DNA from: an uncultured Lachnospiraceae bacterium
Lineage (GTDB): Bacteria; Bacillota; Clostridia; Christensenellales; UBA1242
Reading direction: 5' to 3'
DNA length: 64,000 bases
Assembly (NCBI GenBank): GCA_964400145.1
Contig: CAYNTF010000003.1
Coordinates: 75,370-139,369 of the forward strand
Both the position numbers and the translations under genes were made by a program. The notes beneath the pieces were generated by a model, which saw only the letters and a program-made list of their open reading frames with translations, did no database searches and had not been told where the DNA came from. Positions 5,963 through 52,517 of the stretch are shown in pieces (position 1 is the first letter of the stretch; each line of letters begins with the position of its first letter).

Positions 5963-6664
5963 TTAATTCCTGAAACTTTCAATCTCTTCTTGACTCATTG
6001 GCTTGGTCTTTCCGCGCGAAAGTCCGCCAAGACGAACATTCCCAATGCGCACTCTCTTCAAAAGAACAATCGTTCGCCCTATGCAATCAAACATTCTGCG
6101 CACTTGGTGATTTTGCCCTTCGTCAATACAAACAGAAAGTTTGGTGTTCCGTCCGTCAAAACTCAAAAACTTAACTTTCGCTTTTGGCATTCTCACGCCA
6201 TTTTCCACAACGCCGTTTCGAAGAACAGCAAGTTCGCTTTCCTTCATTTCACCTTCAACTGTGACTTGATATTCCTTTTCAAAGTGAAATTTTGGATGCG
6301 TCACAAGATTGGCAAACTCGCCGTCATTGGTCAAAAAAATCAATCCTTCGGTGTTATAATCCAGCCTGCCCACATGCACAAGTCTTTCGTCACAATCCAC
6401 CAAATCAAAGATGGTTTTTCTACCCTTTTCGTCCTTTCTGGTGCAAGCATAGCCCTTTGGTTTGTTTAATTTCAGATAGACGAATTCTTTTGGCATGACC
6501 ACATTTTGTCCGTCCACTTTGACAACATCTTTTTTCTCGTTTATGGTCGTGCCAAGTTCGTTGACAATTTTTCCATTGACCATAACGCGTCCAGAAGATA
6601 TGATTTCGTCACATTTTCTTCTTGAAGCCACTCCGCAAAGTGCCAGAAATTTGTTTAATCTCAT
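5963..6664 (-). CDS. rluB: rRNA pseudouridine synthase, RsuA/RluB family
   Basis: S4 domain at MRLNKFLA..GVASRR; GRLDYNTEGL catalytic motif. Confidence 0.85.
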   Translation of the reverse strand: MRLNKFLALCGVASRRKCDEIISSGRVMVNGKIVNELGTTINEKKDVVKVDGQNVVMPKEFVYLKLNKPKGYACTRKDEKGRKTIFDLVDCDERLVHVGRLDYNTEGLIFLTNDGEFANLVTHPKFHFEKEYQVTVEGEMKESELAVLRNGVVENGVRMPKAKVKFLSFDGRNTKLSVCIDEGQNHQVRRMFDCIGRTIVLLKRVRIGNVRLGGLSRGKTKPMSQEEIESFRN

Positions 6665-6783
6665 AAAAAAATCCTTTTTGCAAATTTATCAAAAAGTCAA
6701 TCAGCAAGAAGGATTTAAAAAGATTTTCAATCAAGTTGTTTCAACATCCAGCGCAACGGCACAAAGATGCGTCAACAACTCCT

Positions 6784-7956
6784 TTATTCATCAAGCGGTT
6801 CAACCGCCCAATTATTGAAGAAATCGCCCATTCTTTGCCAAATTGACTTAGGTTTGATTTCTTCTATTGTATAAATTTTTTCGGAAAATAGCAAGTCATT
6901 ATTCAAAAATATTTCAACTTTTCCAATTTCTGTGCCTTTTTCCAGCGGAGCTTCCACGCTTTGCGGATAGGTGTAGACAATTTTGATGTTTTCCAATTCG
7001 CTGTCAGTGAGCGGATAGACAAAACTTTCTTTGGTTCCAATTTTAGCGCTTTCCACTCGCCCGTCAACAACTTCAATCGTTTGGTTGTAGTCATAAAGTT
7101 CGGTTAAATCGTGAAGTTTGAAATTCTCTGCGCACTCTTGAAGCATGCTGGCACTTTCTGGAAACATAGGTCCACAATTAAGAACCACGCAAACAATTCT
7201 CATTCCGTCCTTTTCAATCGCAGAAACAAGACAGCGTCCCGCATCGTCTGTGAAGCCTGTTTTCACGCCTATGCACCCGTCAAGCGTGAAAAGAAGTTTG
7301 TTTTTGTTTTTCAAATATCTGTTTTCACCGTCGCCTTTTGTGATTTTGATGTTTTTTGTGCCGACAATCTCTCTGAAAGTGTCATTTTCCAACGCATAGG
7401 CAGTTATCAGCGCCAAGTCATAAGCGGTGGTGTAATGCCCGTCAGCGTCAAGCCCGTGCGTGTTGGCAAAGTGAGAATTTTCCGCCCCAATTTTACGCGC
7501 CAAATCATTCATCATCGTCACAAATTCGCTTGTCGAGCCAGCAACATGTTCAGCGATTGCCACAGAAGCGTCATTTCCAGAAATTAGCATCAAGGCATAC
7601 AAAAGGTCGCGCGTGGAATAGACATCGCCTTGTCGAAGATAGAGCGAAGTTCCCGGCACTCCAACTGCTTTTGGCGAAATTTCAAATTTTTCGTCAAGGT
7701 CAGTGCAATTTTCAAGCGCCGTGATTGCCGTCATAATTTTTGTCGTGCTTGCCATTGGAAGTTTTGCGTTTTCGTTGACAGCAAAAAGTTTTCGTTTTGT
7801 GGAAGTTTCAATCACCGCACAACCCTTTGCGGAAGTGTATAGATTGAGAGCGCTTGCGTTTAAACTGTATGTATTTGCAACTCCAAAAAAAAGGAAAATA
7901 GCACAGAAAGACAATATCACAAAAATCGAAAAAACCTTATTAATTCTCATCGACAT
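6784..7956 (-). CDS. D-alanyl-D-alanine carboxypeptidase (peptidase S11)
   Basis: Signal/TM segment, ASTTK (SxxK), SGND and KTG motifs. Start uncertain (7998, 7956 or 7950). Confidence 0.85.
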   Translation of the reverse strand: MSMRINKVFSIFVILSFCAIFLFFGVANTYSLNASALNLYTSAKGCAVIETSTKRKLFAVNENAKLPMASTTKIMTAITALENCTDLDEKFEISPKAVGVPGTSLYLRQGDVYSTRDLLYALMLISGNDASVAIAEHVAGSTSEFVTMMNDLARKIGAENSHFANTHGLDADGHYTTAYDLALITAYALENDTFREIVGTKNIKITKGDGENRYLKNKNKLLFTLDGCIGVKTGFTDDAGRCLVSAIEKDGMRIVCVVLNCGPMFPESASMLQECAENFKLHDLTELYDYNQTIEVVDGRVESAKIGTKESFVYPLTDSELENIKIVYTYPQSVEAPLEKGTEIGKVEIFLNNDLLFSEKIYTIEEIKPKSIWQRMGDFFNNWAVEPLDE

Positions 7957-12045: not shown

Positions 12046-12084
12046 TTAAAAAAACCTTAACGACAAGTTAAGGTTTTTCTTTTC
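12046..12084. terminator. Bidirectional terminator between convergent genes
   Basis: AACCTTAAC/GTTAAGGTT 9-bp stem flanked by A-run and T-run. Confidence 0.7.
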
Positions 12085-12130: not shown

Positions 12131-13453
12131 TCAAGCCACTTGGTCAAACTCGTCACCGTTTTCAAGGTCAATGTTGTCTTCGTCATCAAATGTTCCAGCG
12201 CCTTCAACAATCTTCTCGGTCAAATAGCCACCTTCACCTGTGTGCGCTCTTGTTGCGTCAACATAATTGCTGTCAAAGGCAACATCACCAACCAAACTTG
12301 TGCAGTTATAGAACATATTTGTGCTGTCAGTCACTCTTGCAGTTGACCAACCTGTTCCCACATAAATTACTGTAAGAGTCTGACAATTATAAAACATCCT
12401 ACCCATATTTGTCACTCTGCTGGTGTTCCAACTTGACAGGTCTAATTCAGAGAGCTTTAAACAACGATAAAACATCATTTCCATGTTAACAACATTTCTT
12501 GTGTTCCAATTTGAAACATCAACATTTGTCAAATTTGTGCAATTACAAAACATATACTGCATATATTCCGCATTGCTGGTGTTCCAATTTGAAACATCAA
12601 CAGTTTCAATCGGAGTGCTATAAAACATAGCAACAAAATATATCACATTGCTCACATCCCAATTTGCAACATTTATTTCTGCTAATGACTGGCAAGCTTC
12701 AAACATACTCTGCATTCTTATCACTCTACCTACATTCCACTTTGAAACATCAAGTGTGTTTAGCAAGGTGCAACTATAAAACATCCAACCCATGTTAGTC
12801 ACATTGCTCACATCCCATTCTGAAACATCAAGAGTTGTCAGCAATCCGCAGTTATAAAACATATAACTCATATCCGTCACTTTGCTTGTATCAAAGCCAG
12901 AAACATCAAGTGTTGTCAAAGAATCGCAACCATAGAACATATAACTCATGTTTGTAACATTCTTTGTGTTGAAATTGTTCAGAACAATTTCTTCAACGGA
13001 TGCAAAATTATAGAATGCATATGACATGTCAGCATTCACAACAATATCTTTGGTTGAAAGGATATAGATTGTTGTTTCGTCATTGTCTGTAACGCGGTAT
13101 AACCCAATTTGTGCGCCGTTCCAAACATAACTTTCCGCTTCTTGCCCTTCCAAAACATTCACTCCGTTTTCGGTGTATGTGTATTCGCCGTCTTCGGTTT
13201 GGGTATACTCACCACTTTCGTCTTTGTCATAATAATCAAAGACAATTCTTGTCACTGTTTCGTTTTCTTCTTGATAATTCTCGTTATTTTTCAGCAATGT
13301 GTTCAAGTCTTGTCCGCTTGTTATGTCTGTTTTCTCCCCGCTTGAAAGATAAATTGGAAGAAAGATTGCCAGAAACAGAACTGCCACCACTGCCACAACC
13401 GATGCCGTGATAATCGCCACCTTCTTCTTTTTGTTTGTTTCATTTTCAGCCAT
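12131..13453 (-). CDS. DUF285/BspA-like leucine-rich-repeat surface protein, N-terminal TM anchor (paralog 1)
   Basis: Repeated ~25-aa units of the form NVTNMSYMFYGCxSLTTLDVSxWDxS. KKKK followed by a hydrophobic anchor. AAGGAGGT RBS. Confidence 0.85.
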   Translation of the reverse strand: MAENETNKKKKVAIITASVVAVVAVLFLAIFLPIYLSSGEKTDITSGQDLNTLLKNNENYQEENETVTRIVFDYYDKDESGEYTQTEDGEYTYTENGVNVLEGQEAESYVWNGAQIGLYRVTDNDETTIYILSTKDIVVNADMSYAFYNFASVEEIVLNNFNTKNVTNMSYMFYGCDSLTTLDVSGFDTSKVTDMSYMFYNCGLLTTLDVSEWDVSNVTNMGWMFYSCTLLNTLDVSKWNVGRVIRMQSMFEACQSLAEINVANWDVSNVIYFVAMFYSTPIETVDVSNWNTSNAEYMQYMFCNCTNLTNVDVSNWNTRNVVNMEMMFYRCLKLSELDLSSWNTSRVTNMGRMFYNCQTLTVIYVGTGWSTARVTDSTNMFYNCTSLVGDVAFDSNYVDATRAHTGEGGYLTEKIVEGAGTFDDEDNIDLENGDEFDQVA

Positions 13454-13518
13454 TTTTTAATAACCTCCTTTTTATATTTTTTCTTTTGGCTTTTTAAGTT
13501 TTTTCCAAACTCAGTGAC

Positions 13519-13545
13519 ATTATAGCATGCGGGGGGGGAACGCAA
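13519..13545 (-). promoter_or_regulatory. Extended -10 promoter with a C8 tract in the spacer: TTGCGT-T-C8-GCATGC-TATAAT
   Basis: Read directly from the minus strand. G8 at 13531-13538 on the + strand; TGC-TATAAT at 13527-13519; 15-bp spacer. Confidence 0.65.
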
Positions 13546-13582
13546 GCATTTTTAAAAATTTTCAGAAAAATTTTTAAAAATG
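13546..13582. repeat. AT-rich near-perfect 17-bp inverted repeat abutting the -35
   Basis: GCATTTTTAAAAATTTTC-AG-AAAAATTTTTAAAAATG. The same element recurs at 52285-52322. Confidence 0.7.
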
Positions 13583-13710
13583 TTGCTTTTTTTGCCAAAA
13601 TCAGCCCAAAATTGACCAAAATTCGCCCATTTTGCCCAAAAATTCACAAAAAAAATGTGAATTTAAACTCAATGAAATTCATAAAAAATTGAAAATTCGC
13701 CGTTCCAAAC

Positions 13711-13745
13711 AAAAAAAAAGACTATAATTTTTATAGCCTTTTTTA
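13711..13745 (-). terminator. Terminator for the 13841..14104 gene
   Basis: GGCTATAA/TTATAGTC stem (one mismatch) then T9 on the minus strand. Confidence 0.55.
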
Positions 13746-13762
13746 ATCAAATGTCTTTATAT

Positions 13763-13818
13763 ATGATTTTGTTAATCTTATCAACCTAATACATGATTTT
13801 GTTAATCTTATCAACCTA
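13763..13818. repeat. Tandem direct repeat, 2 copies with a 30-bp period
   Basis: ATGATTTTGTTAATCTTATCAACCTA at 13763-13788 and 13793-13818, 26/26 identical. Confidence 0.9.
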
Positions 13819-13840: not shown

Positions 13841-14104
13841 TTATCTTTCTTTTTCTTCTTGTCGACTCTTAATCTCTTCTTTGGTATCATACATCCCTTT
13901 TGTCAAGATATACGCACTCGACGACAGAAGCCCGCCGTAATACCCGCCAATAATCATCCCCTTGGCAACTTCATATCTTTGTTCATTGTTCGAACTGTTT
14001 TGGTTCGCAACAAGCCATGTCAAACCCGCCGAACCTGTCACAAACCCAAAAATCGCCACACAAGCAAAACATTTTAAAATCTTCTTATAAATCTTTCCTT
14101 TCAT
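13841..14104 (-). CDS. Small membrane protein, unknown function
   Basis: AAGGAG 8 nt before MKGKIYKK; two hydrophobic segments; own terminator. Confidence 0.5.
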   Translation of the reverse strand: MKGKIYKKILKCFACVAIFGFVTGSAGLTWLVANQNSSNNEQRYEVAKGMIIGGYYGGLLSSSAYILTKGMYDTKEEIKSRQEEKER

Positions 14105-14211
14105 CTCACGCGCTCCTTTTTCTTTATAACATCCAAGATTATACCACACAAGCAAATGTCTGTCAAGGTTGATTTCAAATTTTTCAAATGATTTTCAGTG
14201 TTTTTTCCTTT

Positions 14212-34394: not shown

Positions 34395-34427
34395 CAAAAA
34401 AGACAAGGGGCGTTAAAGCACCTTGTC
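34395..34427 (-). terminator. Terminator overlapping the stop codon of the 34413 gene
   Basis: GACAAGG/CCTTGTC stem enclosing the TAA stop, then T6 on the minus strand. Confidence 0.6.
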
Positions 34428-35093
34428 ATTTTCTGCAAGTTTAGCTGAAATTACATCTTCACTCGTGTTGTCAATAACATTCTCAGGCAATGTCACAATC
34501 GTTGTTCCAATGTCACTGAAAACATACAATCCACCTGGGGCTTTATAGTAAATTTCCCCATTCTCAATTTTAATATCACTAGAAAATCCGACCATACTAT
34601 TTCCTGATAACACACCTTCTTCTTGATCATATGAGAACCACTTAATTGTTTTTGCTAATATCATTGGATAGCTTCGTATATCATCTATAAGAGTTGCATT
34701 TTCCAAAATCCTACTACTCCAATAGCCATCATCATCCTTACGTATTTGATAAACCACACCATTTTCAGTGTAATAATAATAACTCTTTCCCAAATATGTG
34801 TATTCAACCAAATCGTTATCAAGTTTAAAATAGTACTCCAATTCTTGACTATCCGTATTATAACAAGTTAAAGTAAAATTGCTCCCTTCTTGAACAGCAA
34901 CCAAGCATTCAGTTACTTCTGCAACTGCATTTTCAAAAAGTTCTTCTTGCCCTTTTTCTTCTTCACTTTTGGACAAGCCACACCCAGCAAAAGCGAATGC
35001 TGTCGTCAAAGAAATTCCAGAAGCAAGCGCAAATGTGACAAATTGTTTAAGATTTTTAATTTTCCTATCCCCCCTTTTTTGTTTTTTATTCAT
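34413..35093 (-). CDS. Lipoprotein paralog P1; start codon uncertain (ATG 35093 or ATT 35060)
   Basis: Lipobox FAFAGC; ~50-60% identical by eye to P2. ATG 35093 overlaps the predicted -10 element. Confidence 0.6.
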   Translation of the reverse strand: MNKKQKRGDRKIKNLKQFVTFALASGISLTTAFAFAGCGLSKSEEEKGQEELFENAVAEVTECLVAVQEGSNFTLTCYNTDSQELEYYFKLDNDLVEYTYLGKSYYYYTENGVVYQIRKDDDGYWSSRILENATLIDDIRSYPMILAKTIKWFSYDQEEGVLSGNSMVGFSSDIKIENGEIYYKAPGGLYVFSDIGTTIVTLPENVIDNTSEDVISAKLAENDKVL

Positions 35094-35120
35094 TTTATCA
35101 CAAAACTTTAAAAAATACAA
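35092..35120 (-). promoter_or_regulatory. Promoter TTGTAT-17-(TGa)TAAAAT for P1
   Basis: Duplicate of the promoter at 34253-34281. Confidence 0.5.
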
Positions 35121-35233: not shown

Positions 35234-35266
35234 CAAAAAAGACAAGGGGCGTTAAAGCACCTTGTC
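35234..35266 (-). terminator. Terminator overlapping the P2 stop codon
   Basis: Duplicate of the terminator at 34395-34427. Confidence 0.6.
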
Positions 35267-35896
35267 AGTTTCTGCAAGTTTAGTTGTTGAAATTTCATCT
35301 TCAGTCGTGTCGTCAATGACATTCTCAGGCAATGTCACAGTCGTTGTTCCAATGTCACTGAAAACACACAATCCACCTGGGGCTTTATAGTAAATTTCCC
35401 CATTATTTACACTCATTTGAATTGAATAGCCATCTTGTGTTCCTGACAATACATTTTCTTCTTCATTATATGACGACCAGTTAATTGTTTCTAATAATGT
35501 TGTTGAAAAAGTACGGAAAATTTCAATAAAATATGGGTCATCCATAATTTCAGTCTTCCAATATCCATCGTCATCCTGCGACATTTGATAAAGGATATCA
35601 TTTTCAGTGTAACAATATTTAAGATCACCTAAATATAGATACTCCACTAAATCACCATCAAATTTGAAATAATAGACCAGTCGATTATTAAGATATCTAG
35701 TATAAGTGAAATTATTCATTTCTTGAACAGCAGTCAAGCGTTCTGTTACTTCTTCAACCGCGTTTTCAAAAACTTCTTCTTGCCTTTTTTCTTCTTCACT
35801 CATGAACAACTCACACCCAGCAAAAGCGAATGCTGTGGTTAGAGAAATTCCGGAAGCAAGCGCAAGTGTGGCAAATTTTTTAAGATTTCCTTTCAT
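35252..35896 (-). CDS. Lipoprotein paralog P2
   Basis: Lipobox FAFAGC. A G7 run (35903-35909) acts as the SD, 6 nt before ATG 35896. Confidence 0.7.
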   Translation of the reverse strand: MKGNLKKFATLALASGISLTTAFAFAGCELFMSEEEKRQEEVFENAVEEVTERLTAVQEMNNFTYTRYLNNRLVYYFKFDGDLVEYLYLGDLKYCYTENDILYQMSQDDDGYWKTEIMDDPYFIEIFRTFSTTLLETINWSSYNEEENVLSGTQDGYSIQMSVNNGEIYYKAPGGLCVFSDIGTTTVTLPENVIDDTTEDEISTTKLAETDKVL

Positions 35897-35923
35897 AAAC
35901 ATCCCCCCCTTCTTCCTATGTCA

Positions 35924-42901: not shown

Positions 42902-43912
42902 TCAATCTTTATCTTTGCCGTCACGCTTTTCATTCACATGGAACTCTTCATCATAAAGTTTTCTGCTTCTTTCATTCAAAATATTTTTTTTATCAGGGAT
43001 TTCTCTCCCCAAAGCTTTCAATTCATTGCAAAATCTTTTCACTTCATTGTCATAAATGTAGGTAAAATCTTTATAAATCTTTCTTGTATCACGCGCTATT
43101 TTTTTAAATAAAGCATCTTCTTCATTTAACCCTTCTTGCTTTTCTCTCATTGAGTCAAGAAGTCCATCGCAAGCATGATTATAACATATTGTATAATTAT
43201 TTAAATTAATTGAGTCATCACAGGCGATAATATCAGAAATTCTGGCTTGACCATCTGGAAGTTCTGCCACTTCTGACAACCTAAGCATCAATTTGACACT
43301 TTCTGAAAACTCTGTGCTGATTTTAAGATATCTGAAAAGCTCCGGATCTTCCTTTACCATATCAAAAAGTTTTGTATCAAACCCGCTGTAACCATTATTA
43401 CCAGTTATATAAATTGTATCACTATGTTTAATTATCTCTTCTTTTTTGTCAGTAGTTTTCGAAACGGCGGTTTTTGGAGCAGCGTTTTTGTTTTGTTTAG
43501 CGCCGGCCGTTGCTGTCATCTCTATCAATTCATCAACACTTTGTGGAACTTTTTCCGTTGGCTTTTTCTCAACAACCTTTCCAAAAACTTCTTTGTCAAT
43601 ATCATCGTTGTAAAACTCAATAGAATTTAACTGACTTGCGATTTCAAGAATCATGTGATTTTCCTCTTTGGAAAATCTCTTTCCAGAGCGTGAGTTTTGA
43701 ATTTTGACATCCGAAAACTGTTGAGATAAGCGCTCAACATCCCGTCTTGTTTTAGCAATATTTTTTTCAATCTTTTGCTTTTGTTTATCGGTGAATTTTT
43801 GATTTATCGGTGAAAACATATCTTTGCTAAACATTTGGCTAACAGCAGCCAAATTATTCTTGCATTCATTCAATTTTGCATGTATGTTCGTCAATTTTTT
43901 AATTGTGTTCAT
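42902..43912 (-). CDS. Hypothetical protein, 336 aa; coiled-coil N-terminus; no signal peptide
   Basis: Long ORF; GGGGAAATG start context 8 nt after the upstream gene's stop. No motif I recognise. Confidence 0.7.
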   Translation of the reverse strand: MNTIKKLTNIHAKLNECKNNLAAVSQMFSKDMFSPINQKFTDKQKQKIEKNIAKTRRDVERLSQQFSDVKIQNSRSGKRFSKEENHMILEIASQLNSIEFYNDDIDKEVFGKVVEKKPTEKVPQSVDELIEMTATAGAKQNKNAAPKTAVSKTTDKKEEIIKHSDTIYITGNNGYSGFDTKLFDMVKEDPELFRYLKISTEFSESVKLMLRLSEVAELPDGQARISDIIACDDSINLNNYTICYNHACDGLLDSMREKQEGLNEEDALFKKIARDTRKIYKDFTYIYDNEVKRFCNELKALGREIPDKKNILNERSRKLYDEEFHVNEKRDGKDKD

Positions 43913-43920
43913 TTCCCCTC

Positions 43921-44445
43921 CTAGTCCCCGAGAGTTTTGCCATCACTAATTTTATAAGTGTGACTCATGATTGGTTTTGGTTCAGAATATTCTCTTTCGG
44001 TTGCATAATTCAAAAAAACTGAACCATATTCATCTGTTTGCATAACTTGCCTTTCAACATAATCGCTTTCACTGACATCCACCTTAATTTGCCCGTTGCT
44101 TAAAAGACCAAGTTTTTGGATAGTCTTGCCAAAATCCTCAACTTTTTTGCCTAATTTTGACATGAATTCATCTCGTGCACACGCATATGCACCATTTTCA
44201 AAAAAGAATTTTTCAACAAATTGCCTAAATGATGAATCATATTTGTTGAAAATCACTTCTTCAAGGTCTTCAAAAAGCCCAAAATTGTCATTCCAACTTC
44301 TTCTTCCAAACCTATTATCGCCTTCGATGGACATTTGAATGCAAATTGTGTTCCCATTTTGCTCTTTTGCAAGAGGGTTGGTTGAAGGCTTCATAAAGTC
44401 ACCTCCAATCTCAAAATCAAATTGGTCATGTGTTCTTGTATTCAT
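43921..44445 (-). CDS. Hypothetical protein, ~174 aa; no signal peptide
   Basis: GGAGGT 8 nt before ATG 44445 (MNTRTHDQ...). The ATG at 44460 is too close to the -10 element. Confidence 0.7.
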   Translation of the reverse strand: MNTRTHDQFDFEIGGDFMKPSTNPLAKEQNGNTICIQMSIEGDNRFGRRSWNDNFGLFEDLEEVIFNKYDSSFRQFVEKFFFENGAYACARDEFMSKLGKKVEDFGKTIQKLGLLSNGQIKVDVSESDYVERQVMQTDEYGSVFLNYATEREYSEPKPIMSHTYKISDGKTLGD

Positions 44446-44471
44446 TGTTTTTACCTCCATTATTTTTTGCC

Positions 44472-44500
44472 ATTATAGCACGGGGGGGGGAACTTGTCAA
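44472..44500 (-). promoter_or_regulatory. Perfect consensus promoter TTGACA-17-TGcTATAAT with a C9 tract in the spacer
   Basis: Minus strand reads TTGACA AGTT C9 GTGC TATAAT. G9 lies at 44482-44490 on the + strand. Confidence 0.75.
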
Positions 44501-50705: not shown

Positions 50706-52091
50706 TCAGTCATTGTCACCGTCAAGGTTGCCAGTGGCTTTTTCGCTGATGTCGGTCAAATAGCCATAAGCCTGCAACTCTTCTTTGTATCCAGCATAGG
50801 CGTATGTTTTGTTCGTGACACTTCCATTTTCAGTGAAATTTGGAAGAGATGTGCATCTAGAGAACATTGATGAATCAGTTTCAACCGCATCTGTTGACCA
50901 GCCTTCACCAACATAGATTGTTTCAAGGCTTGTGCAACCAGTGAACATACAATACATATTCGTCACTTTGCTGGTGTCAAAGCTTGAAATGTCTATTGAA
51001 GTCACATTTCCTAAACCTGCAAACATATATTCCATGTCTGTCACATCACTTGTGTTAAAATTCGACAAATCTAATTCTCCAGTTAAACCTGCCCAAGCAA
51101 ACATCCATTTCATATCTGTGGCACTGCTGGTGTTCCAATTTGAAAGAAAATCAATTCCTGTCAATTTAAAGCAGTTAAAAAACATACCATTAAATTCCTT
51201 CACATTGCTTACATCCCAATTTGATATATCACCAAAATTTGTTAACTTTTCACAAGTACCAAACATCCAACTCATGCTTGTCACACTGCTTACATCCCAA
51301 TTTGAAAGGTCAACTTCTTCCAAAGCGCTACAGCCACTGAACAAATTAAACATTTCTATCACATTGCTTGTATCCCACTTGGAAACATCAATAGTTGTCA
51401 AAGAACTGCAGTGGAGAAACAAAGACCCCATACTTGTCACATTACTCGTGTTCCAATTTGAAACATCAAGTTCGTCTAAAGATCTACAACCTGCAAACAT
51501 TGTCCACATGCTTGTCACATTGCTCACATCCCACTTGGAAACATCAAGCGTTGTCAAAGAACTGCAATTATAAAACATCCACCCCATATCTGTCACACTG
51601 CTTGTGTTGAAATTGTTGAAAGCAATCTCTTCAACGGATGTAAAATTATAGAATGAATATGATGCATCTTCATTTGCAACAATTTCTTCGGTTGAAAGGA
51701 TGTAGATTGTTGTGTCAACGCGATATAAGTCAATCTGTGTTTTGTTCCAAGTGTATGACTCCGCTGTTTGCCCTTCCAAAACATTTACATCATCTTCGGT
51801 GTAAGTATAGTTGCCATCCTCGGTTTGTGTATAGGCACCACTTTCGTCTTTGTCATAGTAGTCAAAAACAATTCTCTTCACTGTGGTGTCTTCCGCTGTG
51901 TAACTATCACTTTTTTTCAACAATGTGTTCAAAGTCGAACCGCTTGGCAAATTTGTGTTGTCTGTTTCACTTGATTTTTGAGTGAGATAGATTGGAAGAA
52001 AAATCGCCAGAAACAGAACCGCCACCACGCCTACAACTGACGCTGTGATGATTGCCACCTTTTTCTTTTTGTTTGTTTCATTTTCAGCCAT
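50706..52091 (-). CDS. DUF285/BspA-like leucine-rich-repeat surface protein (paralog 2)
   Basis: The same N-terminal ~170 aa as paralog 1 (MAENETNKKKKVAIITASVV...); divergent repeats of the form SVTDMGWMFYNCSSLTTLDVSKWDVSNVT. Confidence 0.85.
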   Translation of the reverse strand: MAENETNKKKKVAIITASVVGVVAVLFLAIFLPIYLTQKSSETDNTNLPSGSTLNTLLKKSDSYTAEDTTVKRIVFDYYDKDESGAYTQTEDGNYTYTEDDVNVLEGQTAESYTWNKTQIDLYRVDTTIYILSTEEIVANEDASYSFYNFTSVEEIAFNNFNTSSVTDMGWMFYNCSSLTTLDVSKWDVSNVTSMWTMFAGCRSLDELDVSNWNTSNVTSMGSLFLHCSSLTTIDVSKWDTSNVIEMFNLFSGCSALEEVDLSNWDVSSVTSMSWMFGTCEKLTNFGDISNWDVSNVKEFNGMFFNCFKLTGIDFLSNWNTSSATDMKWMFAWAGLTGELDLSNFNTSDVTDMEYMFAGLGNVTSIDISSFDTSKVTNMYCMFTGCTSLETIYVGEGWSTDAVETDSSMFSRCTSLPNFTENGSVTNKTYAYAGYKEELQAYGYLTDISEKATGNLDGDND

Positions 52092-52256
52092 TTTTTAATA
52101 ACCTCCCTTTAATATTTTTTCTTTTGGCTTTTTCATAGTTTTTGCATAACCAACCATATATATAAGTTCAATTTGTCAGTTTTCACTGATTTCAATCCGA
52201 CGCGCAGATTTCAAATCTTGACGAATTATATAGTCAGTTTTCGCAAACCCAATACC

Positions 52257-52284
52257 ATTGTAGCATGCGGGGGGGGGAAGGCAA
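52257..52284 (-). promoter_or_regulatory. Extended -10 promoter with a C9 tract in the spacer: TTGCCT-T-C9-GCATGC-TACAAT
   Basis: G9 at 52269-52277 on the + strand; 16-bp spacer. Confidence 0.6.
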
Positions 52285-52322
52285 GCATTTTTAAAAATTT
52301 TCAGAAAATTTTTTAAAAATGC
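52285..52322. repeat. AT-rich inverted repeat abutting the -35 (copy of 13546-13582)
   Basis: GCATTTTTAAAAATTTTC-A-GAAAATTTTTTAAAAATGC. Confidence 0.7.
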
Positions 52323-52517
52323 TTGTATTTTTCCAAAAAATCAGCCCAAAATTGACCAAAAATTGCTCATTTTGCCAAAAATTCATAAAAAAATGACAAA
52401 TTTTCGCTCATCATTTCTCAAAAAAATATCAAAAAAAGTTGTAAATTTAACAAAAAAAATGCCAATTCCTGCAAGAAATTGACATAAAAAATTTTACTTT
52501 TTTCAATTACACAAAAA

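What the first reader, a model, noticed from the sequence alone, without database searches (positions are those of the whole stretch)
13519..13545. C8 tract in the promoter spacer of DUF285 surface-protein paralog 1 (spacer currently 15 bp)
The minus strand reads TTGCGT-T-CCCCCCCC-GCATGC-TATAAT, with a TGC extended -10. The layout matches the 44.5 kb and 52.3 kb promoters, but with C8 and only a 15-bp spacer. That predicts a weaker or OFF state compared with a C9 or C10 allele. The gene it drives is a membrane-anchored BspA/DUF285 leucine-rich-repeat protein, a family typical of variable surface antigens in Mollicutes and host-associated Firmicutes.
Basis: partly seen in the sequence, partly recalled or inferred. 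Interest (0 to 1): 0.7.

Follow-up and report, generated by a model that had tools for sequence, protein, structure and literature searches.

The report
Poly-C switch in surface-protein promoter
A run of eight C's lies between the two recognition boxes of the promoter of a surface-protein gene in an uncultured spore-forming Clostridia bacterium; it is most likely a slippage-prone on/off or dimmer switch of a kind well known in pathogens, but this could not be tested at this locus.

Summary
The minus strand reads TTGCGT (13545-13540), T, C8 (13538-13531), GCATGC, TATAAT (13524-13519). That gives a 15-bp spacer with a TGn extended -10. It sits 59 nt upstream of a monocistronic, terminator-bounded gene (12131-13453) for a DUF285/PARCEL leucine-rich-repeat protein with an N-terminal membrane anchor.

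The tract is not chance. The 37% GC window has three G/C runs of 8 or more, against 0.14 expected, and all three lie in promoter spacers (15, 16 and 17 bp). The paralog-2 promoter cassette is about 87% identical and differs by one C. Two remote relatives carry G10 and C10 tracts in TTGACA...-10 spacers (18 and 20 bp) upstream of homologous genes. Ordinary promoter-like motifs in the window peak at 17 bp, and 15 bp is at background.

The best reading is a porA/TP0126-type contingency promoter, currently in a low or OFF state. No same-locus population data could be retrieved, and the perfect extended -10 may soften the effect.

The host is a Clostridia MAG, not a Mollicute, and the protein is not a lipoprotein. 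One new detail is a 36-bp palindrome abutting the -35 whose core matches the CodY box.

Verdict: a new member of a known kind, of moderate interest.

The parts
13714..13744 (-). Intrinsic terminator of the upstream small membrane-protein gene (13841-14155). It insulates the C8 promoter from read-through.
   Evidence: 14-nt arms, 93% complementary, 3-nt loop, followed by a T9 run (I6). RNA fold -11.4 kcal/mol, z = -4.0, 0 of 200 shuffles as stable.
13590..13651 (-). Phased T-tract motifs, TTTTGG(G)C on the minus strand, at spacings of 10/30/40 bp. Likely curved or UP-like upstream DNA. Conserved in paralog 2.
   Evidence: the repeat finder families D1/D2; conserved block in the alignment of the two paralog upstream regions. 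The curvature and function are inferred.
13547..13582 (.). Perfect 16-nt inverted repeat (CATTTTTAAAAATTTT / AAAATTTTTAAAAATG, 4 nt between arms) abutting the -35. Its centre (13557-13571) matches the CodY box AATTTTCWGAAAATT with 1 mismatch.
   Evidence: I1. The paralog-2 copy at 52296-52310 is a perfect match. Matches with at most 1 mismatch: 2 observed against 0.30 expected. The two copies are paralogous, so they count as one event.
13540..13545 (-). -35 hexamer TTGCGT (3 of 6 to TTGACA).
   Evidence: It is the best available -35 at any spacing from 15 to 18.
13531..13538 (-). C8 homopolymeric tract (G8 on the + strand) inside the 15-nt spacer. This is the proposed slippage-prone element.
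13519..13527 (-). Extended -10: TGC + TATAAT.
   Evidence: The same TGn-plus-hexamer design occurs at the 44.5 kb and 52.3 kb promoters.
13454..13512 (-). Predicted 5' UTR of about 59 nt, unstructured, with RBS AAGGAGG at 13470-13464.
   Evidence: fold -4.5 kcal/mol, z = -0.9. The TSS position is inferred, not mapped.
12131..13453 (-). DUF285/PARCEL (BspA-type LRR) paralog 1, 440 aa, with an N-terminal KKKK + 23-residue hydrophobic anchor and no lipobox.
   Evidence: It is 52% identical to paralog 2, with a near-identical N-terminal 120 aa.
12048..12080 (-). Intrinsic terminator ending the monocistronic unit.
   Evidence: 14-pair stem plus T-run.
52257..52284 (-). Sister promoter of DUF285 paralog 2 (50706-52091): TTGCCT-T-C9-GCATGC-TACAAT, spacer 16.
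44472..44500 (-). Third tract promoter: TTGACA-AGTT-C9-GTGC-TATAAT, spacer 17. It drives two orphan proteins (43921-44445 and 42902-43912).
   Evidence: No Pfam, PADLOC, NCBIfam or PHROG family.

Best explanation
The C8 run is the variable part of the spacer of a sigma-A (sigma-70-type) promoter that is the main promoter of a monocistronic DUF285/PARCEL surface-anchored LRR protein gene.

Proposed mechanism:
- Slipped-strand mispairing during replication adds or removes C's.
- Each C changes the -35/-10 spacing by 1 bp and the angular register by about 34 degrees.
- C10 gives the optimal 17 bp, C9 gives 16 bp (active), and C8, the assembled allele, gives 15 bp (weak or OFF).
- Cells in a population would therefore differ heritably but reversibly in whether they display this protein.

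The gene is one of at least three tract-controlled units in the window. It belongs to a paralog family that shares a conserved 5' 'expression cassette' (curved AT-rich DNA, palindrome, tract promoter, 5' UTR, N-terminal anchor domain) in front of divergent LRR regions. This would allow combinatorial surface variation. A CodY-like palindrome abutting the -35 may add nutrient-responsive control.

Shown: the anatomy, the non-random tracts, tract-length differences between paralogs and relatives, and the local preference for 17/16-bp spacers.
Inferred: hypermutability at this locus, the TSS, the OFF state at C8, and CodY binding.
For: - Exact promoter anatomy with TGn extended -10.
- Three G/C runs of 8 or more against 0.14 expected, 0 of 300 simulations reaching 3, all in promoter spacers on the gene strand.
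- The unit is insulated by terminators on both sides, so this promoter is the likely sole driver.
- The paralog-2 cassette is about 87% identical over -166 to -49 and differs by one C in the tract.
- Independent examples exist in remote relatives of the same gene family. L004 has TTGACA-AGGCG-C10-TCGGC-TAAAAT, spacer 20, before a gene with the family N-terminal domain. L001 has TTGACA-AATTTCGC-G10-TATATT, spacer 18, before an operon ending in a DUF285 gene.
- The five spacers are 15, 16, 17, 18 and 20, scattered around the optimum as expected for loci that drift between ON and OFF.
- Ordinary promoter-like motifs in the window peak sharply at 17 (23 hits) and 16 (12 hits), against 5 at 15 and a background of about 7.
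- The closest relative also carries G9 tracts in a variable island, so homopolymeric switches are a habit of the lineage.
- The mechanism is established for porA, TP0126 and related loci (PMC7864442, read).
Against: - There are no read-level or multi-strain data for this locus. The species is represented by one assembly, and exact-protein look-ups for neighbouring genes found nothing.
- A perfect TGnTATAAT can support transcription with a poor or misplaced -35. The -35 here is only 3 of 6, so tract length may tune expression only modestly.
- The C8 call rests on one metagenome-type assembly, and homopolymer length is the class of error assemblies make most often.
- The G9 tract in the relative is identical in four contigs from three sequencing runs plus a MAG. 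These are probably one population, and consensus sequences hide minority lengths.
- The evidence for tract-length differences comes from paralogs and remote homologs, not alleles.
Confidence: 0.6

Rival explanations
1. The promoter is dominated by its extended -10. It fires from TGnTATAAT largely independently of the weak -35, so the gene is expressed at C8. Tract slippage, if it happens, is a mild rheostat or selectively neutral.
For: Perfect TGcTATAAT. The -35 is only 3 of 6. TGn is common at promoter-like sites in this window. It is established that extended -10 promoters tolerate poor -35 elements.
Against: - It does not explain why the only three long G/C runs in 64 kb all sit in spacers.
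- It does not explain why unrelated-sequence promoters in L001 and L004 repeat the design.
- The 44.5 kb promoter combines a perfect TTGACA with the tract at exactly 17 bp.
Confidence: 0.15
2. The C-run is a fixed cis element rather than a mutable spacer. It could be a binding site for a poly(C)/poly(G)-recognising regulator, or a structure-forming (i-motif or G-rich template) element affecting open-complex formation. Its length would be conserved within the species.
For: In T. pallidum tprL, the authors proposed that a poly-G overlapping the -10 acts through effects other than spacing (PMC7864442). The G9 tract in relatives is identical in four contigs.
Against: Lengths differ (8, 9, 9, 10, 10) across the five promoters. 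Both the flanks and the strand of the run differ: C-run in the window and L004, G-run in L001. Only its placement between the hexamers is shared.
Confidence: 0.08
3. Transcription of paralog 1 starts from another promoter in the AT-rich 260-bp region, or the assembled C8 is a homopolymer miscall of C9, as in paralog 2. Either way, the '15-bp, OFF' state would be an artefact of reading the consensus.
For: A weak alternative exists: TTGGCA-17-AAAAAT at 13598-13570, 9 of 12. AT-rich DNA offers many -10-like hexamers. Only a single assembly is available.
Against: The alternative hexamers are much poorer than TGcTATAAT and lie inside or upstream of the palindrome. Coding homopolymers in the window are intact: S7 and S12 are 100% identical to the relative and EF-G has the same length. 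That argues against a systematically error-prone assembly.
Confidence: 0.1

Closest known systems
Neisseria meningitidis porA (poly-G in the -35/-10 spacer; van der Ende 1995) and Treponema pallidum TP0126 (poly-G between -35 and -10; Giacani 2015), as summarised in PMC7864442
   Same: A homopolymeric G/C tract lies wholly between the sigma-70-type -35 and -10 hexamers of a surface or outer-membrane protein gene. Expression is set by the resulting spacer length, with the optimum at 17 bp.
   Different: The host is a Gram-positive, spore-forming Clostridia MAG. The promoter has a strong TGn extended -10 and a weak -35. The product is a DUF285/PARCEL LRR protein. Variability and its effect on expression have not been measured here.
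N. meningitidis opc (poly-C overlapping -35), nadA (repeat tract plus NadR operators; PMC2791445), B. pertussis fim (poly-C between the BvgA site and -10; from my own knowledge), and T. pallidum tprE/G/J (poly-G plus CRP)
   Same: A repeat tract is combined with a nearby regulator-binding site, so stochastic and environmental control are layered. Here the candidate site is the palindrome/CodY-like box abutting the -35.
   Different: In those systems the tract changes activator or repressor geometry. Here the tract is inside the core spacer. CodY binding is only a motif match.
Mollicute variable surface protein families with repeat tracts in the promoter spacer (M. hyorhinis vlp poly-A, M. mycoides Vmm TA repeats, M. 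capricolum Vmc; from my own knowledge, with Wise 2006 cited in PMC2996958) and DUF285 'drp' families (PMC2824730)
   Same: A multigene family shares a conserved 5' expression cassette (promoter plus N-terminal export region) in front of divergent repeat regions, and each copy has its own tract. DUF285/PARCEL repeats are the same domain family as the Mollicute drp proteins.
   Different: The proteins here are not lipoproteins (no lipobox). The genome uses the standard code and encodes sporulation genes. For the M. agalactiae drp genes, phase variation was judged unlikely by the authors (PMC2824730), so tract-controlled DUF285 genes would be a new combination.

Membership tests
Homopolymeric-tract promoter-spacer contingency loci (porA / TP0126 type) | A mononucleotide run of about 7 nt or more located between recognisable -35 and -10 hexamers of the gene's promoter | tested here: met
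   TTGCGT-T-C8-GCATGC-TATAAT. The same design occurs at 44.5 kb and 52.3 kb.
Homopolymeric-tract promoter-spacer contingency loci (porA / TP0126 type) | The tract is over-represented relative to genome composition (selected, not chance) | tested here: met
   Three runs of 8 or more against 0.14 expected; 0 of 300 simulations reach 3.
Homopolymeric-tract promoter-spacer contingency loci (porA / TP0126 type) | Tract length varies within populations or between strains at the same locus | tested here: inconclusive
   Only paralog differences (C8 against C9) and remote-homolog differences (C10, G10) were seen. No second genome of the species is on record. The relative's G9 is invariant in 4 contigs.
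Homopolymeric-tract promoter-spacer contingency loci (porA / TP0126 type) | Transcript or protein level changes with tract length, and the TSS maps downstream of the -10 | not testable with these tools
   This needs RNA 5'-end mapping and reporter or expression data. The only indirect support is the preference for 17/16-bp spacers in this window.
DUF285 / PARCEL (BspA-type LRR) surface proteins | PF03382 and TIGR02167 repeats above curated cut-offs | tested here: met
   PF03382 at 191.4 bits (cutoff 25), PF13306 at 65.6 bits (cutoff 27.7), and TIGR02167 at 238.6 bits (cutoff 30) with 8 stretches.
Mollicute variable surface lipoproteins (Vlp/Vsp/Vmm/drp) | Lipoprotein signal peptide with lipobox Cys; Mollicute host (UGA = Trp, no sporulation genes) | tested here: not met
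   The N-terminus MAENETNKKKKVAIITASVVAVVAVLFLAIFLPIYLSSGE has no Cys. The window encodes YtfJ, YqfD and GPR, and has long table-11 ORFs. LigA relatives are named 'MAG: Clostridia bacterium'.
CodY-regulated promoters | 15-bp CodY box AATTTTCWGAAAATT in or near the promoter | tested here: met
   0 mismatches at 52296-52310 and 1 mismatch at 13557-13571. Matches with at most 1 mismatch are expected 0.30 times. The two sites are paralogous and lie in very AT-rich DNA, so the significance is modest.
CodY-regulated promoters | A codY gene in the genome and CodY binding or regulation at the site | not testable with these tools
   No CodY domain was found among the window ORFs scanned. The rest of the genome is not available.

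The most novel reading that the evidence does not exclude
An uncultured, spore-forming Clostridia lineage runs a Mycoplasma/Neisseria-style contingency system. A family of DUF285/PARCEL surface proteins, plus at least one orphan two-gene cassette, is carried on small islands inserted between housekeeping genes (ligA-rpsL and tuf-pepM18). Each island has its own poly-C/G promoter-spacer switch, and for the DUF285 genes a shared CodY-type operator. Nutrient status would gate, and slippage would randomise, which surface variants each cell displays. Translational poly-G switches in the sister species would belong to the same toolkit.
Probability: 0.2. Interest if true: 0.6.

Novelty: new member of a known kind. 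Interest (0 to 1): 0.45.

Why it matters
Phase variation in Clostridia and gut Firmicutes is mostly discussed in terms of invertible promoters. I found no paper linking BspA/DUF285 proteins or Clostridia to homopolymeric promoter-spacer switches. For Mycoplasma agalactiae drp (DUF285) genes, the authors considered phase variation unlikely (PMC2824730).

If confirmed, this locus and its sisters would show three things:
- SSR-based transcriptional switching of surface LRR proteins operates in uncultured spore-forming Clostridia.
- It offers a simple sequence signature (a G/C run of 8 or more between -35 and TGn -10) for mining contingency genes in low-GC MAGs.
- It warns that consensus MAG sequences freeze one state of a heterogeneous population.

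The mechanism itself is textbook, so the value is in extending its range, not its concept.

Tried and rejected
**Failed look-ups**
- Exact-protein contig look-ups found nothing on record for paralog 1, EF-Tu, S20, and family members P0033, P0030 and P0043. The 13.5 kb locus could therefore not be compared in any other genome.

**Collection scans**
- The genome-contig scan with the N-terminal domain found only L001, at 45% identity.
- The metagenome-contig scan with the N-terminal alignment found nothing.
- The second scan, with CCCCCCCGCATGCTAYAAT, gave one chance hit in unrelated DNA, L021. The viral-contig scan found nothing.
- The profile search with the N-terminal alignment was swamped by low-complexity words and returned only P0121.

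**Unrelated hits**
- High-coverage DUF285 hits P0077 and P0026 turned out to be an unrelated lineage of 50-53% GC without tracts.
- The LigA-81% species (L007-L016) has different synteny, no DUF285 gene and no tracts.

**Other negative searches**
- Searches of plasmids and phages with the promoter region and the N-terminal domain found no match.
- Rfam found nothing in either 5' UTR; the window has only 4 tRNAs.
- PDB sequence search for the protein found no hit.

**Readings rejected**
- A Mollicute origin.
- A lipoprotein product.
- A CRP-like TGTGA/TCACA site upstream, because the spacing is wrong.
- Homology of the L004 upstream region to the window cassette: the alignment shows only AT-richness, so L004 is an independent example of the design rather than an ortholog.

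Full report
**1. The observation**

Reading the minus strand of 13380-13740 gives ...aaaaatgcTTGCGTtCCCCCCCCgcatgcTATAATgtcactgag... The elements are:
- -35 TTGCGT at 13545-13540.
- A 15-nt spacer: T, C8 at 13538-13531, then GCATGC.
- -10 TATAAT at 13524-13519, preceded by TGc, which makes an extended -10.

No alternative -35 at 16-18 bp matches TTGACA at more than 2 of 6 positions.

A homopolymer census shows only three G/C runs of 8 or more in the 64-kb, 37% GC window: 13531-13538 (8), 44482-44490 (9) and 52269-52277 (9). All three are G on the + strand, and all lie between -35- and -10-like hexamers reading on the minus strand:
- TTGACA-17-TATAAT at 44.5 kb.
- TTGCCT-16-TACAAT at 52.3 kb.

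A first-order Markov model expects 0.14 such runs, and 0 of 300 simulations gave three.

**2. The transcription unit**

The gene at 12131-13453 (-) encodes a 440-aa protein.
- It scores PF03382 DUF285 at 191 bits, BspA-type LRR_5 at 66 bits, and has 8 TIGR02167 'PARCEL' repeats.
- Its N-terminus (MAENETNKKKK + 23 hydrophobic residues) looks like a signal anchor. There is no cysteine, so it is not a lipoprotein.
- An RBS (AAGGAGG, 13470-13464) precedes the ATG.
- The predicted 59-nt leader is unstructured.
- Upstream, the small membrane-protein gene 13841-14155 ends in a hairpin plus T9 terminator at 13714-13744 (-11.4 kcal/mol, z = -4.0).
- Downstream, a 14-pair terminator lies at 12048-12080.

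The unit is therefore monocistronic and insulated, which makes the C8 promoter its likely sole driver. The consensus scanner, limited to 16-18-bp spacers, does not call it. The only other candidate upstream is weak: TTGGCA-17-AAAAAT, 9 of 12.

**3. A shared expression cassette**

Paralog 2 (50706-52091, 461 aa) is 52% identical overall but nearly identical over the first 120 residues.

At the DNA level the region from about -166 to -49 is about 87% identical between the two genes. This region holds phased T-tracts, a palindrome, the -35, the tract and the -10. The tracts differ by exactly one C. Paralog 2 also carries a roughly 100-nt insertion in its leader.

Five further family members with the same N-terminal domain exist in NCBI assemblies: P0030, P0033, P0043, P0049 and P0061. 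P0043 comes from a contig of the same length (168,436 bp) as the one holding the window's LigA, so a third paralog probably sits outside the window. Their DNA could not be retrieved.

**4. Relatives**

The window's LigA has one exact match (NCBI) and many homologs at 70-92%. The few that carry names are called 'MAG: Clostridia bacterium'. The window encodes YtfJ, YqfD and the germination protease, so the host is a spore-forming Clostridia lineage, not a Mollicute.

The closest genome with DNA is GCA_964594865.1 (L005/L017), at 81-92% nucleotide identity with identical S7 and S12. It is collinear with the window but lacks two cassettes:
- The paralog-2 cassette. Its ligA-rpsL gap holds different, Cys-rich small ORFs with two G9 tracts.
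- The 44.5 kb two-gene cassette. Its tuf-pepM18 gap is only 273 bp.

The tract-bearing units are therefore accessory islands.

Two remote relatives show the same promoter design with unrelated flanks:
- L004: TTGACA-AGGCG-C10-TCGGC-TAAAAT, spacer 20, upstream of a gene with the family N-terminal domain.
- L001: TTGACA-AATTTCGC-G10-TATATT, spacer 18, upstream of an operon of an anchored 204-aa protein, a SipW-like signal peptidase and a 768-aa DUF285 protein.

Across the five promoters the spacers are 15, 16, 17, 18 and 20.

**5. Is 15 bp 'off'?**

I counted TTGACA-like/TATAAT-like pairs at every spacing from 12 to 22 in the window. With at most one mismatch per hexamer:

| Spacer | Pairs |
|---|---|
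| 17 bp | 23 |
| 16 bp | 12 |
| 15 bp | 5 |
| background | about 7 |

With TGn required, the counts are 17, 10 and 2. This organism's promoters therefore follow the canonical 17±1 rule, and 15 bp is not a used spacing.

The mechanism is the one documented for porA and TP0126 (PMC7864442).

There is a caveat. The -10 is a perfect TGnTATAAT and the -35 matches only 3 of 6, so some -35-independent activity is plausible. The tract could act as a dimmer rather than a switch.

**6.

Abutting the -35 is a perfect 16-nt inverted repeat with a 4-nt centre at 13547-13582. In paralog 2 it extends to 20 nt and overlaps the -35.

Its core is the CodY consensus AATTTTCWGAAAATT (consensus checked; e.g. PMC5314169, PMC10415144):
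- A perfect match at 52296-52310.
- One mismatch at 13557-13571.

Matches with at most one mismatch are expected 0.30 times in the window. The two sites are copies of one cassette in very AT-rich DNA, so this is a lead, not a result. No codY gene lies in the window. If real, it would layer nutrient control on the stochastic switch, as NadR does at nadA (PMC2791445).

**7. What could not be done**

The decisive test is tract-length heterogeneity at this locus in reads or other strains. It was out of reach. The species has one assembly on record, and look-ups for paralog 1, EF-Tu, S20 and the family members all failed. The collection scans found no close relative.

The only same-locus comparison available is the relative's G9 tract in four contigs from three runs plus the MAG. 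It shows no difference, but these are consensus sequences, probably of one population.

**8. Comparison and verdict**

By architecture this is a porA/TP0126-type promoter-spacer contingency locus. The family organisation (a conserved 5' cassette, divergent repeats, one tract per copy) resembles Mollicute variable-surface-protein families. However, it fails their defining features of lipoprotein signal and Mollicute host.

I found no literature linking DUF285/BspA proteins or Clostridia with homopolymeric promoter switches. For M. agalactiae drp genes the authors thought phase variation unlikely.

I file this as a new member of a known kind. Confidence is about 0.6 that the tract is a functional slippage switch or dimmer with C8 as the low state. 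Interest is 0.45.

Noticed in passing
window 42902-44500: The third C9-tract promoter (perfect TTGACA-17-TGnTATAAT) drives two soluble-looking orphan proteins (174 and 336 aa) ending in a terminator. They have no Pfam, NCBIfam, PADLOC or PHROG family. The whole cassette is absent from the closest relative, whose tuf-pepM18 gap is only 273 bp in L017.
   Followed up: partly
L005 5960-6910 (= L017 8650-9600; also L006, L018-L020): In the sister species the ligA-rpsL gap holds Cys-rich small ORFs with two G9 tracts inside coding sequence. At 6653-6661, a G10 allele would fuse the ORF MHRCPICNELL... to the 77-aa ORF 6677-6910. At 6062-6070, a G8 allele would extend a leader ORF to a TGA overlapping the ATG of the 141-aa ORF. 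These look like frameshift-type contingency genes, currently OFF. The 6653-6661 tract is G9 in all six loci; the 6062-6070 tract lies outside L019 and L020 and is G9 in the other four.
   Followed up: partly
window 13547-13582 and 52282-52325: A 36-44-bp AT-rich palindrome abuts or overlaps the -35 of both DUF285 promoters. Its core equals the CodY box AATTTTCWGAAAATT, perfect in paralog 2 and with 1 mismatch in paralog 1.
   Followed up: partly
window 52140-52245: A roughly 100-nt insertion in the 5' UTR of paralog 2 relative to paralog 1 contains a 10-nt direct repeat, GTCAGTTTTC (52175-52184 and 52233-52242). It folds into a long hairpin (leader -29.4 kcal/mol, z = -2.5) and has no Rfam match. 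It may be a small MITE-like element or a leader structure.
   Followed up: partly
window 13759-13818: A 30-nt tandem duplication (2.0 copies, 96% identical) lies between the stop of the 104-aa membrane-protein gene and its terminator.
   Followed up: no
window 35894-35909 and 35069-35074: G7 and G6 runs (minus strand) form the Shine-Dalgarno regions of two adjacent genes without a Pfam match (34413-35120 and 35252-35902). The second gene encodes a lipoprotein signal (…AFAFAGC). The G7 sits 6 nt before the likely ATG (35894), not in a promoter spacer.
   Followed up: partly
L001 770-5163: The G10-spacer promoter in a Clostridia MAG (CALWKE010000001.1) precedes an operon. It holds a 204-aa N-terminally anchored protein, a 395-aa protein with a SipW-type signal peptidase domain, and a 768-aa DUF285 protein. 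This suggests dedicated processing of the surface proteins in that lineage.
   Followed up: partly
window 12732-12918 and 51359-51602: 78-nt periodic tandem repeats (2.4-3.1 copies, 70-74% identical) lie inside both DUF285 genes. These are the PARCEL/LRR units (3 x 26 aa) and a possible substrate for repeat-number change or recombination between paralogs.
   Followed up: no
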